Shown: one piece after another, positions 4,241-48,898 of the stretch | Position numbering within the stretch: the first letter of the stretch is position 1 | How the letters are laid out: each line of letters opens with the position of its first letter | Assembly (NCBI RefSeq): GCF_009914755.1 | Contig: NC_060934.1 | Source: the human T2T-CHM13v2.0 reference genome, Homo sapiens | Direction: 5' to 3' (one strand) | DNA length: 64,000 bases | Made by a program: the position numbers and the translations under genes | Notes under the pieces: generated by a model | Database searches by the model: none | Told to the model about the DNA's origin: nothing | The model's input: the letters and a program-made list of their open reading frames with translations, nothing else

Positions 4241-4564
<324 letters not shown>

Positions 4565-30518: not shown

Positions 30519-30711
30519 TTTTTTTTTTTTTTTTGAGATAGGGTCTTTCTCTGTTCCCCAGACTGGAGTACAATGTCACGATCATGGCACTGGCAGCCTC
30601 AACATTCCAGACTGAAGCAATCCTCCTGTCTCAGCCTCCCTAGTAGCTGGGATCACAGGCAGGTACTACCACACCAGGCTCATTTTGTTGTTTTTAGAAA
30701 GATAAGGTCTC
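30519..30711 (-). mobile_element. AluJ right arm, split by the HERV-H copy
   Basis: Poly(T), gagatagggtct...aagcaatcctcctgtctcagcctcc; continues at 36220. Confidence 0.88.
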
Positions 30712-30822
30712 GGCTGACTCTCTTTTCGGACTCAGCCCACCTGCACCCAGGTGAAATAAACAGCCTTGTTGCTCACACAAAGCCTGTTTGGTGGTCTCTT
30801 CACACAGATGCAAGTGAAATTT

Positions 30823-30840
30823 TGGTGCTGTGACTCGGAT
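30823..30840 (+). other. Primer binding site complementary to tRNA-His
   Basis: TGGTGCTGTGACTCGGAT versus canonical TGGTGCCGTGACTCGGAT (one CpG-type change), just after U5. Confidence 0.9.
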
Positions 30841-31272
30841 CAGGGGCCTCCCTTGGAATATCAATCCCCTGTCCTCCTGCTCTTTGTTCCGTGAGAAAGA
30901 TCCACCTACGATCTCTGGTCCTCAGACCAACCAGCCCAAGGAACATCTCACCAATTTTAAATCCGGTAAGTGGCCTCTTTACTCTCTTCTCCAACCTCTC
31001 TATCCCTCAACCTCTTTCTCCTTTCAATCTTGGCACCACACTTCAATCTCTCCCGTCTCTTAATTTCAGTTCCTTTCATTTTCTGGTAGAGACGAAGGAG
31101 ACACCTTATATCCATGGACCCAAAACTCCGGCGCCAGTCACAGACTCGGGAAGACAGTCTCCCCTTGGTGCTTAATCACGCGGGGATGCCTGCCTGATTA
31201 TTCACCCATGTTTCAGAGGTGTCTGACCACGTGGGGACGCCTGCCTTGGTCCTTCACCCTTAGCAGCAAGTA

Positions 31273-31508
31273 CCGCTTTTCTGGGGGGCAAGAACCCCCT
31301 GACCCCTTATCTCTGTGTCTCTACCACTTCTCTGCTTTTCTGGAGGGCAAGAACCCCCCAACCCCTTCTCTCCATGTCTCTACCCTTTCTCCGCTTTTCT
31401 GGGAGGCAAGAACCCCCTGACCCCTTCTCTCCATGTCTCTACCCCTTCTCCGTTTTTTGGGGGTCAAGAACCCCCCACCCCTTCTCTCTGTGTCTCTACT
31501 CTCTTTTC
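31273..31508 (+). repeat. 59-bp tandem repeat, 4 copies, in the HERV-H leader
   Basis: Units ccgcttttctggggggcaagaacccc...tctctacc start at 31273, 31332, 31391 and 31450. Confidence 0.88.
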
Positions 31509-32184
31509 TCTGGGCTTGCCTCCTTCACTATGGGCAGCCTTCCATCCTCCATTCCTCCTTCTTCTCCCTTAGCCTGTGTTCTCAAGAACTTAAAACCTCT
31601 TCAACTCACACCTGACCTAAACATAAATGCCTTATTTTCTTCTATGATGCCGTTTGACCCCATTACAACCTCGATAGTGGTTCCAAATAGTCAGAAAACA
31701 GCACTTTTGATTTTTCCATCCTACAAGATCTAGATAATTCTTATCGTAAAATAGGCAAATGGTCTGAGGTGCCTGACATCCAGGCATTCTTTTACACATT
31801 GTTCCCTCCCTAGTCTCTGTTCCCAATGTGACTCTTCCCAAATCCTCCTTCTTTCCCTCCCATCTGTCCTCCCAGTCCCAACCCCAAGCGTTGCTGAGTC
31901 TTTCTAATCTTCCTTTTCTACAGACCCATCTGACTTTCCCCCTTCTCCCCAGGCTGCTCCTCGCCAGGCCAAGCCAGGTCCCAATTCTTCCTCAGCCTCT
32001 GCTCCCCCCACCCTATAATCCTTTTATCACCTCCCCTCCTCACACCCTGTCCAGCTTACAGTCTCATTCCACAGCTAGCCCTCCCCCACCTGCCCAGCAA
32101 TTTCCTCTTAAAAAGGTGGCTGGAGCTAGTGGCATAGTCAAGGTTAATGCTCCTTTTTCTTTATCTGACCTCTCCCAAAATCAG

Positions 32185-32790
32185 TTAGCATTTAGGCTCT
32201 TTTTCATCAAACATGAAAAGTCCAGCCCAGTTCATGGCCTGCTTAGCAGCAACCCTGAGACGTTTTACAGCCCTAGACCCTGAAAGGTCAAAAGGCCAAC
32301 TTATTCTCAATATACATTTTATTTTATTACCCACTCTGCTCCAGACATTAAATAAAGCTCCAAAAATTAAATTCCAGCCCTCAAACCCCACTACAGGACT
32401 TAATTAACCTCACCTTCAAGGTGCACAATAATAGAGTAGAGGCAGCCAAGTAGCAACATACTTCTGAGTTGCAATTCCTTGCCTCCACTGTGAGACAAAC
32501 CCCAGCCACATCTCCAACACACAAGAACTTCCAAATGCCTAAACCGCAGTGGCCAGGCATTCCTCCAGGCCTGTCTCCCCCAGGAGCTTGCTACAAGTGC
32601 CAGAAATCTGGCCACCAGGACAAGGAATGCCTGCAGCCCAGGATTCCTCCTAAGCTGTGTCCCATCTGTGCAGGACCCCACTGGAAATCAGACTGTCCAA
32701 TTCACCCAGCAGCCACTCCCAGAGCCCCTGGAACTCTGGCCCAAGGCTCTCTGACTCCTTCCCAGATCTTCTTGGCTTAGCGGCTGGAGA
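32185..32790 (+). pseudogene. gag: HERV-H gag remnant with nucleocapsid zinc knuckles
   Basis: CYKCQKSGHQDKEC and CPICAGPHWKSDC in ORF 32469-32780. Confidence 0.88.
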
Positions 32791-32855
32791 CTGACGCTGC
32801 CTAATCACCTCAGAAGCTTCCTGGACCATCACAGATGCTTTAAGTAACTCTCACA

Positions 32856-35160
32856 GTGGAAGGTAAGTCCATCCCCTTCTTAATCAATACGGAGGCTACA
32901 CACTCCACATTACCTTCTTTTCAAAGGCCTGTTTCCTTTGCCTCCATAACTGTTGTGGATATTGATGGCCTGGCTTCTAAACCTCTTAAAACTCCCCAAC
33001 TCTGGTGCCAACTTAGACAATACTCTTTTAAGCACTCCTTTTAGTTATCCCCACCTGCCCAGTTCCCTTATTAGGCCGAGATATTTTAACTAAATTATCT
33101 GCTTCCCTAACTATTCCTGGGCTACAGCCACACCTCATTGCCACCTTTTCCCCCAGTTCAAAGCCTCCTTCACATCCTCCCCTTGTGTCTCCCCACCTTA
33201 AACCACAAGTATAGGACACCTCTACTCCCTCCTTGGTGACCGATCATCCACCCCTTACCATCTCATTAAAACCTAATCACCCTTACCCCGCTCAACGCCA
33301 ATATCCCATCCTGCAGCACACTTTAAAAGGATTAAAGCCTGTTATCACTCGCCTGCTACAGCATGGCCTTTTAAAGCCTATAAACTCTCCTTACAATTCC
33401 CCCATTTTACCTGTCCTAAAACCAGACAAGCCTTACAGGTTAGTTCAGGATCTGTGCCTTATCAACCAAATTGTTTTGTCTATCCACCCCATGGTGCCAA
33501 ACCCATATACTCTCCTATCCTCAATAACTCCCTCTACAACCCATTATTCTGCTCTGGATCTCAAACATGCTTTCTTTACTATTCCTTTGCACCCTTCATC
33601 CCAGCCTCTCTTCGCTTTCACTTGGACTAACCCTGACACCCATTAGGCTCAGCAAATTACCTGGGCTGTACTGCCGCAAGGCTTCACAGACAGCCCCCAT
33701 TACTTCAGTCAAGCCCAAATTTCTTGCTCATCTGTTACATATCTCGGCATAATTCTCATAAAAACACACGTGCTCTCCCTGCCAATCATGTCCGACTGAT
33801 CTCTCAAACCCCAACACCTTCCACAAAACAATAACTCCTTTCCTTCCTAGGCATGGTTGGATACTTTTGACTTTAAATACCTGGTTTTGCCATCCTAACA
33901 AAACCATTATATAAACTCACAAAAGGAAACCTAGCTGACCCCATAGATCCTAAATCCTTTCCCCACTCCTCTTTCCGTTCCTTGAAGACAGCTTTAGAGA
34001 CTGCCCCCACCCTAGCTCTCCCTGACTCATCCCAACCCTTTTCATTACCCATAGGCAAAGTGCAGGGCTATGCAGTCAGAATTCTTACACAAGAACCGAG
34101 ACCATGCCCTGTAGCCTTTTTATCCAAACAATTTGACCTTACTGTTTTGCCTAGCCCTCAAGTCTGCATGTGGTGGCCGCTGCTGCCCTAATACTTTTAG
34201 AGGCCCTTAAAATCACAAACTATGCTCAACTCGCTCTTTACAGTTCTCATAACTTCCAAAATCTATTTTCTTCCTCACACCTGACACATATACTTTCTGC
34301 TCCCCGGCTCCTTCAGCTATACTCACTCTTTGCTGAGTCTCCCACAATTACCATTGTTCCTGGCCCAGACTTCAATCCAGCCTCCCACATTATTCCTGAT
34401 ACCACACCTGACTCCCATGGCTATATCTCTCTGATCCACCTGACATTCACCCCATTTCCCCATGTTTCCTTCTTTCCACACCCTGATCACACTTGGTTTA
34501 TTGATGGCACTTCCACCAGGCCTAATTGCCACACACCAGCAAAGGCAGGCTATGCTGTAGTACAAGCCACTAGCCCACCTCTTAGAACTTCTCATTTCCT
34601 TTCCATCGTAGAAATCTATCCTCAAGGAAATAACTTCTCAGTGTTCCATCTGCTATTCTACTACTCCTCAGGGATTATTCAGGCCCCTTCCCTTCCCTAC
34701 ACATCAAGCTCGTGGATTTGCCCCCACCCAGGACTGGCAAATTGGCTTTACTCAACTTGCCCCGAGTCAGGAAACTAAAATACCTCTTGGTCTGGGTAGA
34801 CACTTTCACTGGATAGGTAGAGGCCTTTCCCACAGGGTCTAAGAAGGCCACCATGGTCATTTCTTCCCTTCTGTCAGATATAATTCCTCAGTTTGGCCTT
34901 CCCACCTCTATACAGTCCTATAACAGACTGGCCTTTATTAGTCAAATCACCCAAGCAGTTTGTCAGGCTCTTAGTATTCAGTGAACTAATGGTCTTTTAA
35001 AAACACAGCTCACCAAGCTCAGCCACCAACTTAAAAAAAGGACTGGACAATACTTTTACCACTTGCGCTTCTCAGAATTCGGGCCTGTCCTTGGAATGCT
35101 ACAGGGTACAGTCCATTTGAGCTCCTGTATAGACGCTCCTTTTTATTAGGCCCCAGTCTC
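32856..35160 (+). pseudogene. pol: HERV-H pro-pol remnant (protease, RT, RNase H, integrase), frameshifted and internally deleted
   Basis: FLINTEATHS (decayed DTG), YNSPILPVLKPDKPYRLVQDL, LDLKHAFF, ctgccgcaaggcttcacagacagcccc (LPQGFTDSP), WFIDGTS, and integrase-like WVDTFTG..VEAFP. Confidence 0.88.
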
Positions 35161-35790
35161 ATTCCAGACACCAGAGCAACCTGGACTGCGCCACCCCCTC
35201 ACCCAAAAAAAAAAAAAACTTGTCATCCCTACTATCTTCTATCTGGTCATACTCCTATTCACTATTCTCAACTACTCATAAATGCCCTGCTCTTGTTTAC
35301 ACTGCCGGTTTACACTATTTCTCCAAGCCATCACAGCTGATATTTCCTGTTGCTATCCCCAAACTGCCACTCTTAACTCCCTCTTAAAGTAAATAAATAA
35401 TCTTTGCTGTCAGGGCTATGCTGAACCTCCTTAGGCACTCTCTAGTTAGATGCCCTGGGTCCTCCCAATTCTTAGTCCTTTAATACCTGCTTTTCGTCTT
35501 GTCTTATTCCGTTCTTTTTTCAATTCGTACAAAACCATATCCAGGCCATCACCAATAATTCTATATGACAAATGTTTCTTCTAACAACCCCACAATATCA
35601 CCCGTTACCACAAAATCTTCCTTCAGCTTAATCTCTCCCGCTGTAAGTTCCCACGCCGCCCCTAATCCCGCTCGAAGCAGCCCTGAGAAACATCGCCCAT
35701 TATCTCTCCATACCACCCCCAAAAATTTTCCCCGCCCCAACATTTGAACATTATTGTTTTATTTTTCTTATTAATATAAGAAGACAGGAA

Positions 35791-36202
35791 TGTCAGGCCT
35801 CTGAGCCCAAGCTAAGCCATCTTATCCCCTGTGACCTGCACGTATACATCCAGATGGCCTGAAGTAACTGAAGAATAACAAAAGTGATATTTAAATGGCC
35901 TGTTCCTGCCTTAACTGATGACATTCCACCACAGAAGAAGTGAAAATGGCCAGTCCTTGCCTTAAGTGATGACATTACCTTGTGAAATTCCTTCTCCTGA
36001 CTCATCCTGGCTCAAAAACTCCCCCACTGAGCACATTGTGACCCCCACTCCTGCCCACCAGAGAACAACTCCCCTTTGACTGTAATTTTCCTTTACCTAC
36101 CCAAATCTTATAAAACGGCCCCACCCCTGTCTTCCTTCTCTGACTCTCTTTTAGGACTCAGCCCACCTGCACCCAGGTGAAATAAACAGCCCTGTTGCTC
36201 AC
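35791..36202 (+). promoter_or_regulatory. LTR7 U3+R with no U5; TATA 36109-36115 and poly(A) signal 36181-36186
   Basis: Polypurine tract aagaagacaggaa then tgtcaggcctctgagcccaagctaag; duplicated aaatggcc..tgccttaa.tgatgacatt units; TATAAAA; AATAAA. Confidence 0.9.
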
Positions 36203-36219
36203 AAAAAAAAAAAAAAGAA

Positions 36220-36339
36220 AGAAAGATAAGGTCTCACTATGTTGCCCAGGCTGTTCTTGAACTCCTGATCCCAAGTGGTCCTCCTACATCAACCTCCCAA
36301 AGTGCTGGGGATTACAGGCGTGAGCCACTGCAGCCAGCC
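36220..36339 (-). mobile_element. AluJ left arm, continuing 30519-30711
   Basis: ggtctcactatgttgcccaggctg...gattacaggcgtgagccactg. Confidence 0.88.

Positions 36340-48596: not shown

Positions 48597-48898
<302 letters not shown>

What the first reader, a model, noticed from the sequence alone, without database searches (positions are those of the whole stretch)
30696..36235. HERV-H copied as an mRNA by L1 machinery, not integrated as a provirus
Seen: the 5' end lacks U3 and begins at R. The 3' end lacks U5 and stops 16 nt after AATAAA in a poly(A). The flanks are a perfect 16-bp TSD (agaaagataaggtctc) preceded by ttttt, an L1-endonuclease-like site in an AluJ linker. Known: retroviral integrase gives two complete LTRs and 4-6 bp TSDs, while R-U5...U3-R-polyA with a long TSD is the LINE-mediated processed form, well described for HERV-W and, to my knowledge, much less commonly noted for HERV-H. 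Inference: an unspliced ~5.5-kb HERV-H RNA was retrotransposed by L1 in the germline or early embryo. It has no 5' promoter, so it should behave differently from ESC-expressed HERV-H loci.
Basis: partly seen in the sequence, partly recalled or inferred. Interest (0 to 1): 0.8.

Follow-up and report, generated by a model that had tools for sequence, protein, structure and literature searches.

The report
L1-made retrocopy of HERV-H RNA
This is a copy of a full-length HERV-H retroviral RNA that the L1 retrotransposon machinery pasted into an Alu repeat, and it is one of at least about fifty such copies in this genome, although reviews name HERV-W as the only retroviral family copied this way.

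Summary

- **Structure.** Window 30712-36219 reads G/GG, R, U5, primer-binding site, broken gag-pol interior, U3, R, poly(A).
- **Missing parts.** There is no U3 at the 5' end and no U5 at the 3' end.
- **Insertion signs.** A perfect 16-bp target-site duplication flanks the element. The site sits in one antisense Alu and reads TT|AGAA, close to the L1 endonuclease motif.
- **RNA template.** The element is colinear with proviral HERV-H copies, so the template was an unspliced RNA running from the LTR7 transcription start to its poly(A) site.

The new result is that the locus is not a rarity. A search of the same assembly found 52 LTR7 R ends running into poly(A), against 0 in the reversed control. 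Of the 29 others examined, 12 start at the same cap site with flanking duplications. Three more were confirmed from the 5' side. Among the 13 cap-site starts found from the 3' side, 12 begin with an extra G. Only about 3% of ordinary LTR7 copies have that G.

No young parent copy was found; the best match is 91% identical. Age and orthologous empty sites could not be tested. The mechanism is known from HERV-W. My literature searches found no description of it for HERV-H.

The parts
30519..30695 (-). Host Alu, first part. It lies antisense to the element: a T-run at 30519-34, then the right arm up to the T-rich linker.
   Evidence: Reading. Aligns to other ~300-bp repeat copies in the window (4251-4447, 1426-1613, 48599-48756 and others). 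The family name Alu is recalled.
30691..30701 (+). L1-endonuclease-type target, top strand ttttt|agaaag. The bottom strand reads TTCT/AAAAA.
   Evidence: Compared with the TT/AAAA motif quoted for HERV-W pseudogenes, it has one mismatch.
30696..30711 (+). Target-site duplication, left copy (AGAAAGATAAGGTCTC).
30712..30713 (+). Two G at the very 5' end. One matches the G at the start of R in ordinary LTR7. The other is probably untemplated and cap-derived.
   Evidence: Published LTR7 sequences and 5 of 8 proviral relatives read CCCTT[C/T]|GCTGACTC (4 with C, 1 with T). Of 13 cap-site retrocopies found from the 3' side, 12 start GGCTGACTC. For this locus alone it is ambiguous: the nearest relative's LTR reads CCCTT|GGCTGA (L087).
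30714..30777 (+). 5' R region. It includes AATAAA and ends at the CA poly(A) site.
   Evidence: Direct repeat with 36140-36203, 62 of 64 identical.
30778..30822 (+). U5 (45 nt).
   Evidence: Continues as in proviral LTRs and published LTR7 (CAAAGCCTGTTTGG...). It is absent after the 3' R.
30823..30840 (+). Primer-binding site (TGGTGCTGTGACTCGGAT).
   Evidence: Position directly after U5. A paper passage states that HERV-H carries a tRNA-His primer-binding site right after the 5' LTR. The match to tRNA-His itself was not tested.
31273..31506 (+). Leader (pre-gag) region with three tandem units of 59 nt.
   Evidence: families D1 and D3. Unit number varies among relatives (e.g. L051).
32454..32780 (+). 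gag remnant with a nucleocapsid zinc knuckle.
   Evidence: Pfam zf-CCHC, E 3.3e-05, 24.2 bits against a cut-off of 20.8.
33215..33646 (+). pol remnant: reverse transcriptase fragment.
   Evidence: Pfam RVT_1, E 5.8e-06, 26.6 bits, below the cut-off of 29.6. The frame is broken: 42 stop-to-stop ORFs of 60 aa or more overlap the region, the longest 207 aa.
33877..34191 (+). pol remnant: RNase H-like fragment.
   Evidence: Pfam RT_RNaseH_2, E 3.5e-06, 27.4 bits, below the cut-off of 29.8.
35776..35790 (+). Purine-rich tract directly before the 3' LTR (polypurine-tract position).
   Evidence: Reading. The role is inferred from position only.
35791..36139 (+). 3' U3: the complete LTR7 promoter/enhancer with TATAAAA at 36110-36116.
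   Evidence: Aligns to the 5' LTR U3 of 8 proviral relatives from 35789-35791 onward. Its first 22 nt occur exactly in published LTR7/HERVH sequences. It lies within the RefSeq enhancer feature 35702-36203 from the hub's table.
36140..36203 (+). 3' R, ending at the poly(A) site 16-17 nt after AATAAA (36181-36186).
36204..36219 (+). Poly(A) tail. The A run starts at 36203, which is probably templated: A14, then G, then AA.
   Evidence: Ordinary LTR7 reads CTCACA-CAAAGCC at this point.
36220..36235 (+). Target-site duplication, right copy.
36236..36339 (-). Host Alu, second part (left arm, antisense).
   Evidence: Aligns to the same window repeats directly after the point where the 5' flank stops (4452-4564, 1623-1729, 48783-48898).

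Best explanation
A HERV-H provirus of the common internally deleted form was transcribed from its 5' LTR7 promoter. Transcription started about 30 nt after the TATA box and ran unspliced through the element. The RNA was cleaved and polyadenylated at the CA 16-17 nt after AATAAA in the 3' LTR.

In a cell of the germ line (or of the embryo before germ-line segregation), L1 ORF2 protein took this polyadenylated RNA in trans. It nicked the bottom strand at TTCT/AAAAA in the T-rich linker of an antisense Alu. It then primed reverse transcription on the poly(A) tail and copied the RNA to its capped 5' end, which probably added one untemplated G. A second-strand nick 16 bp away produced the 16-bp target-site duplication.

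The product (30712-36219) has no U3 in front, so it lacks its own upstream promoter. It carries an intact U3-R at its 3' end.

Shown: the anatomy, the duplication, the single split Alu, colinearity with proviral copies, and recurrence of the same two ends at many other loci. Inferred: the L1 enzymes, the cell type, the cap origin of the extra G, and any present-day activity.
For: Anatomy of the locus:
- R-U5 at the 5' end and U3-R-poly(A) at the 3' end.
- Control: 8 of the 9 best other 5' matches in the genome carry about 415 nt of U3-R upstream of the same point (alignment to 35789-35791..36207). This locus does not.
- Published LTR7 sequences show C before GCTGACTC and U5 after CTCACA.

Insertion site:
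- A 16-bp perfect duplication, with 2 matches in the window against 0.06 expected.
- The flanks abut in three other Alu copies.
- TT|AGAA at the site.

Template: the interior is colinear over 4201 nt with 17 other copies.

Recurrence:
- 52 genome matches to 'R end + A8' at up to 2 mismatches, against 0 for the reversed control.
- In all 29 other loci held, homology to R-U5 stops at the R end (window 30781 at most), with an A-rich tract behind it.
- For 11 of these I fetched more upstream sequence. Ten start at window-equivalent 30712/30713 without U3, each with a direct repeat abutting both ends. Exact cores are 7-16 nt.
- Two short copies (L026, R only; L039, 0.8 kb) do the same.
- Three more pairs were confirmed from the 5' side, with duplications of 15, 15 and 11 nt (the last with 1 mismatch).

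Extra G:
- 12 of the 13 cap-site copies found from the 3' side start GG.
- Among ordinary LTR7 copies, 58 of 1244 sites are GG. Of those 58, 23 are retrocopy 5' ends.
- An untemplated 5' G is attributed to reverse transcription of the mRNA cap in L1 work (passage in PMC9341517).
Against: - The nick site is one base off the textbook TT/AAAA.
- No orthologous empty site could be examined.
- No parent was found. The best other copy is 91% identical, and only 35 of 1470 candidates were scored. The source and date are therefore open.
- The second G at the 5' end may be templated at this locus, because the 5' LTR of the nearest relative reads CCCTT|GGCTGA.
- L1 proteins are inferred from the signature, not observed.
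Confidence: 0.95

Rival explanations
1. An ordinary integrase-made provirus later lost the U3 of its 5' LTR and the U5 of its 3' LTR through two independent deletions.
For: HERV-H copies are often rearranged. For example, L058 shows an inverted R-U5 junction.
Against: - Both breakpoints fall exactly at the transcription start and the poly(A) site.
- An untemplated A-run replaces U5 (compare).
- The duplication is 16 bp, not 4-6 bp.
- The Alu is continuous across the insertion apart from the duplication.
- The same two ends recur at 15 other fully checked loci.
Confidence: 0.01
2. HERV-H cDNA was captured at a pre-existing DNA break. This could be endonuclease-independent L1 insertion or repair-mediated capture, rather than classical endonuclease-dependent target-primed reverse transcription.
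For: The site (TT/AGAA) is not a perfect match to the endonuclease motif.
Against: A clean 16-bp duplication, an intact poly(A) tail, no target deletion in the Alu and a full-length 5' end are the hallmarks of the endonuclease-dependent route as I recall the literature. The A-rich start of the duplication is shared by the other checked copies.
Confidence: 0.03
3. The locus is a DNA-level duplicate (segmental duplication or gene conversion) of another HERV-H retrocopy, not an independent insertion.
For: Such duplicates exist in the class. L019/L020/L021 on contig 9 and L071/L072 on contig 7 share their flanks.
Against: - The only genome match that covers the upstream flank as well as the 5' junction is the locus itself.
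- The best other interior match is 91%.
- The duplication belongs to the local Alu.
Confidence: 0.01

Closest known systems
HERV-W processed pseudogenes (Pavlicek et al. 2002, not held here and known to me only by citation; Grandi et al. 2016, PMC5016936, section 5 read)
   Same: The anatomy and inferred mechanism are identical: R-U5 ... U3-R, a poly(A) tail, a TT/AAAA-type site, a long target-site duplication, and colinearity with the retroviral RNA.
   Different: - The family differs: HERV-H/LTR7, with a tRNA-His-type primer site.
- The share of the family is much smaller. I found at least about 50 loci against more than 1200 LTR7 R starts. In HERV-W, 135 of 213 elements are pseudogenes.
- Here the 5' ends were also scored for an extra G.
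Ordinary L1-made processed pseudogenes of cellular mRNAs, and full-length L1 insertions with an untemplated 5' G
   Same: Trans-mobilisation of a polyadenylated RNA polymerase II transcript. The extra 5' G is read as a cap copy (PMC9341517, passages).
   Different: The template is a non-coding retroviral genomic RNA with no intron removed. The copy carries a complete LTR promoter/enhancer at its 3' end.
Integrase-made HERV-H proviruses (for example loci L003-L010 and the nearest relative on contig 21)
   Same: The same interior and the same LTR7 sequence, at 85-91% identity.
   Different: Proviruses have U3 in the 5' LTR. As published LTR7 sequence shows, they also have U5 after R. This locus lacks both and adds poly(A) and a 16-bp duplication.
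Spliced HERV-H elements in genomic DNA (Goodchild, Freeman and Mager 1995; recalled, not seen here)
   Same: Evidence that HERV-H RNAs were reverse-transcribed back into the genome.
   Different: As I recall, those copies were attributed to retroviral-type retrotransposition. The present copy is unspliced and bears L1 hallmarks. I could not read the paper.

Membership tests
L1-mediated retroviral processed pseudogene | The 5' LTR is reduced to R-U5 (no U3). | tested here: met
   The element starts at 30712, directly at R. Eight of 9 control loci have about 350 nt of U3 upstream of the same point; this one has the Alu plus the duplication.
L1-mediated retroviral processed pseudogene | The 3' LTR is reduced to U3-R (no U5). 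| tested here: met
   The LTR runs 35791-36203 and stops at CTCACA. U5, as seen at 30778-30822 and in published LTR7, is absent.
L1-mediated retroviral processed pseudogene | A poly(A) tail at the natural polyadenylation site. | tested here: met
   A14-G-AA begins 16-17 nt after AATAAA.
L1-mediated retroviral processed pseudogene | A target-site duplication longer than an integrase gives. | tested here: met
   16 of 16 bp identical. It is unique in the window, with 0.06 matches expected.
L1-mediated retroviral processed pseudogene | A TT/AAAA-type insertion motif. | tested here: met
   tt|agaa, preceded by ttttt. One mismatch to the motif quoted.
L1-mediated retroviral processed pseudogene | Colinear with the retroviral transcript. 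| tested here: met
   Colinear with 17 copies over 4201 nt, and with proviral copies over the first 1.8 kb.
L1-mediated retroviral processed pseudogene | An empty site with one copy of the duplicated bases. | tested here: inconclusive
   Only an in-silico version was possible: the flanks abut in three other Alu copies, overlapping by the duplication. No other primate genome or allele was available.
HERV-H / LTR7 | The LTR sequence is LTR7. | tested here: met
   The first 22 nt of the 3' LTR occur exactly in published LTR7/HERVH sequences in 4 papers. The region around TATA, R and U5 reads alike. The subfamily (7up, 7d, 7B and so on) was not determined.
HERV-H / LTR7 | A high-copy gag-pol interior of the family. 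| tested here: met
   1470 first-look candidates in the genome, and 35 scored at 85-92% identity. gag zinc knuckle, RT and RNase H remnants are present.
HERV-H / LTR7 | A primer-binding site for tRNA-His. | not tested
   An 18-nt site follows U5 at 30823-30840. Assignment to tRNA-His rests on a paper passage and recall; no tRNA was aligned.
Integrase-made provirus | Two complete LTRs and a 4-6 bp duplication. | tested here: not met

The most novel reading that the evidence does not exclude
HERV-H is a second human retroviral family that L1 copied repeatedly. This assembly holds at least about 50 polyadenylated LTR7 ends. Sixteen copies are verified from cap to tail, and up to about 29 are counted if 5' ends without U3 are included. 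This runs against the review statement that HERV-W is the sole such group, and the class has not been catalogued.

The copies preserve, at single-base resolution, the start site (a G after a pyrimidine, about 30 nt after TATA, plus a cap-derived G) and the poly(A) site used in ancestral germ-line cells. They show that HERV-H RNA and active L1 protein met in the same heritable cells. They also form a set of promoterless HERV-H loci that locus-level expression studies should treat separately.
Probability: 0.4. Interest if true: 0.65.

Novelty: new member of a known kind. Interest (0 to 1): 0.5.

Why it matters
- **Annotation.** A HERV-H locus with no upstream U3 should not be counted among LTR7-driven loci. 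Reads mapping to it may be misassigned from relatives or come from read-through.
- **History of the family.** The class shows that L1 contributed, modestly, to HERV-H copy number. It also shows that HERV-H RNA coexisted with active L1 in heritable cells. A 2025 review describes HERVH and LINE-1 expression as largely separated in early human embryos (passages in PMC12228294).
- **Mechanism.** The retrocopies give a natural record of the LTR7 start and poly(A) sites. A near-constant extra 5' G suggests that many copies were made from capped, full-length RNA.
- **Regulation.** The 3' U3-R is intact and lies under a RefSeq enhancer feature. The copy may therefore still act as a regulatory element even without a promoter in front.

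Tried and rejected
- **Large fetch.** I then asked for less, as the message allowed. Only 11 long loci were extended, and 22 of the 52 poly(A) hits were never fetched.
- **Papers not held.** Pavlicek et al. 2002 could not be read by DOI or PMC id. Costas 2002, Jern et al. 2004/2005, Belshaw et al. 2005 and Goodchild et al. 1995 were not looked up; I expect them not to be held. An earlier mention of HERV-H retrocopies in those papers cannot be excluded.
- **TSD finders.** The exact-match duplication finder found nothing for 13 of the 29 loci. Their 5' ends lie beyond the 1.5 kb held, or the repeats have decayed; they stay unresolved.
- **U3 scorer.** My automatic scorer mislabelled 38 of 39 junctions as 'no-U3' because of a register error. 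I classified them by reading the printed junctions instead: 21 with U3, 17 without, 1 inverted.
- **Parent search.** No copy above 92% identity over any part, and 91% over the whole interior. No parent is named and no date is given. Pairwise divergence only bounds the age from above.
- **Dating by private substitutions.** I did not attempt this, because it would need a consensus of proviral copies.
- **Other look-ups.** PMC7353768 yielded nothing on the extra G. Searches were malformed queries.
- **Not attempted.** The Alu subfamily (J) and the LTR7 subfamily were not determined.


Full report
**What is at the locus**

- AGAAAGATAAGGTCTC occurs at 30696-30711 and again at 36220-36235.
- These are the only two matches in the 64-kb window, even allowing 2 mismatches. 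The expected number is 0.06, and none of 100 shuffles reached 2.
- Between them lies a 5.5-kb element. It opens with GG + CTGACTC at 30712. It closes with ...AATAAA (36181-36186), 16 more bases, and an A-run (A14-G-AA) that reaches the second repeat copy.
- A 64-nt stretch at the start (30714-30777) repeats just before the tail (36140-36203), with 2 differences. This is the retroviral R region.

**Family and LTR boundaries**

- The first 22 nt of the 3' LTR (from 35791) occur exactly in four papers on HERVH/LTR7.
- The LTR7 reporter sequences printed in Carter et al. 2022 (PMC8912925; passages of the methods section seen) read the same around the TATA box, R and U5.
- Those sequences show a C before GCTGACTC, and about 40 nt of U5 after CTCACA.
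- The genome of the window (held as G000) contains many relatives. Eight of the nine best other matches to the 5' end (L003-L010) carry a full 5' LTR. Its U3-R aligns to window 35789-35791..36207.

The 3' LTR here is therefore U3 (35791-36139) plus R and lacks U5. The 5' LTR is R plus a 45-nt U5 (30778-30822) and lacks U3. An 18-nt primer-binding site follows at 30823-30840.

**Interior**

- Pfam finds a gag zinc knuckle above its cut-off. It finds RT and RNase H fragments just below theirs.
- The frames are broken throughout. The longest stop-free stretch is 207 aa.
- The interior 31500-35700 is colinear over all 4201 nt with 17 other genomic copies. The first 1.8 kb is colinear with proviral copies.

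The template was therefore an unspliced, genome-length RNA of the common deleted HERV-H form.

**Insertion site**

- The two flanks belong to one short interspersed repeat that I recognise as an antisense Alu (the name is recalled).
- Against three other copies in the window, the 5' flank ends where the 3' flank resumes. For example, 30696 aligns to 4447, and 36224 (equivalent to 30700) aligns to 4452. Nothing is lost and only the 16 bp is doubled.
- The site reads ttttt|agaaag. This is TT/AGAA, against the TT/AAAA motif quoted for HERV-W pseudogenes.

All defining features of an L1-made retroviral processed pseudogene listed in Grandi et al. 2016, section 5, are met.

**The locus is one of a class**

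A pattern made of the R end plus eight A (up to 2 mismatches) matched 52 places in the assembly: 24 forward, 28 reverse and 0 for the reversed control. This locus is one of them. By eye, two of the 2-mismatch rows look like ordinary LTRs.

Thirty loci were returned, of which 29 are not this locus.

- In all 29, similarity to R-U5 stops at the R end and an A-rich tract follows.
- Three of them (L019-L021) share flanks and are one event duplicated.
- For the 11 whose similarity ran off the 1.5-kb flank unresolved, I fetched 6 kb more.
- Ten of those 11 begin at the window equivalent of 30712/30713 with no U3. Each has a direct repeat that abuts the 5' end and follows the tail. Exact cores are 7-16 nt, and several are longer with one mismatch. 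These copies are 2.8-6.0 kb long.
- Two short copies also run from the same start to the same end with duplications: L039 (0.8 kb) and L026 (R only, about 75 nt).
- Four others are 5'-truncated with duplications of 19, 18, 11 and 14-of-15 nt (L011, L036, L016, L014).
- L025 has an inverted 5' segment.
- L033 is truncated near window-equivalent 32733.
- Eleven remain unresolved.

**The 5' ends and the extra G**

From the 5' side, GGCTGACTCTCTTTTYRGACTCAGCC matched 58 places exactly and 1244 at up to 1 mismatch. Of the 42 one-mismatch rows listed, 41 have C, T or A in place of the first G.

The 58 exact sites break down as follows:

| Group | Count | Source |
|---|---|---|
| This locus and five copies already found | 6 | |
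| Sites in proviral LTR pairs (12 in same-strand pairs, 1 partner of L007) | 13 | |
| Fetched and read, with U3 upstream | 21 | |
| Fetched and read, with unrelated upstream sequence (L071 and L072 are duplicates) | 17 | |
| Fetched and read, inverted junction | 1 | |

Three of the 17 pair with poly(A) ends. They have duplications of 15, 15 and 11 nt, the last with one mismatch.

In all, 16 loci including this one are verified from start site to tail with duplications. Up to about 29 are cap-site starts if the unpaired 5' ends are counted.

Of the 13 cap-site copies found from the 3' side, which is unbiased for the 5' sequence, 12 start GG. At L018 the Gs could belong to the duplication. Ordinary LTR7 copies have GG in roughly 34 of about 1220 sites. 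The extra G is therefore mostly untemplated. L1 studies attribute such a G to copying of the mRNA cap (PMC9341517, passages). For this locus alone the point is open, because the nearest relative's 5' LTR reads CCCTT|GGCTGA (L087).

**Source and age**

- The best other copy of the interior is 91% identical (contig 21). The next are 90-88%.
- Only 35 of 1470 candidates were scored.
- No parent can be named. The divergence only says the event is old.
- No other primate genome was available.

**Function**

No U3 lies in front, so autonomous LTR7-driven transcription of the element is not expected. This is an inference. The complete U3-R at the 3' end lies under the RefSeq enhancer feature 35702-36203 in the hub's table. 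A start there would meet AATAAA within about 45 nt. L026 shows that such R-only RNAs once existed.

**Literature**

- Searches for HERV-H with 'processed pseudogene', 'LINE-mediated', 'R-U5/U3-R' and 'retrocopies/L1-mediated' listed no title on HERV-H retrocopies (listings).
- Six exact phrases such as 'HERV-H processed pseudogenes' gave 0 papers.
- The RTVL-H search listed none either.
- The abstract of Grandi and Tramontano 2017 (PMC5537654) calls HERV-W the sole HERV group specifically mobilised by L1.
- A 2025 HERVH review (PMC12228294; 12 of 17 passages seen) does not mention such copies in those passages.
- Older subscription papers were not readable, so prior mention cannot be excluded.

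**Verdict**

Noticed in passing
L026 (G000 contig 14, near 33487231, minus strand): A retrocopy of the R region alone, about 75 nt: GGCTGACTC ... AATAAA ... poly(A), flanked by a 13-nt duplication. This RNA started and was polyadenylated within one LTR7.
   Followed up: partly
L025 (G000 contig 12, near 81954714, minus strand): A polyadenylated HERV-H 3' part whose upstream about 280 nt is inverted relative to the rest. This looks like the 5' inversion that L1 twin priming gives. No duplication was found.
   Followed up: no
L084/L092 (G000 contig 16, 76427710-76437309, minus strand): The cap-site start and the poly(A) end are 9.6 kb apart and share a 15-nt duplication. It is either a retrocopy of a long (env-bearing?) HERV-H RNA or one with later insertions. 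The interior was not fetched.
   Followed up: partly
L019, L020, L021 (G000 contig 9 at 42.4, 47.6 and 77.3 Mb); L071, L072 (contig 7 at 144.9 and 145.07 Mb, opposite strands): The same retrocopy junction with the same flank appears in two or three places. The insertion was carried along by later segmental duplication.
   Followed up: no
L058 (G000 contig 3, near 90149543): An R start is preceded by the reverse complement of R-U5, giving a head-to-head LTR fragment junction. It is unexplained.
   Followed up: no
window 31273-31506; L051 positions about 2130-2950: A 59-nt tandem unit in the HERV-H leader is present three times here. It is many more times repeated in the contig-16 copy, so the array length varies between copies.
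   Followed up: no
window 36139-36141 versus 30712-30714: The element's own 3' LTR reads TCT|CTGACTC at the U3/R border, with no G. Its 5' end reads GG|CTGACTC, so the two LTRs of the source differed at the start site.
   Followed up: partly
window 35702-36203: The RefSeq enhancer feature in the hub's table ends exactly at the last base of R, where the poly(A) tail begins.
   Followed up: no
L002 (G000 contig 6, near 72934905, minus strand): This is the best genome match to the 5' 190 nt of the element (94%). It also lacks U3 and starts at CTGACTC after unrelated sequence. Its 3' end was not among the poly(A) hits and was not fetched.
   Followed up: partly
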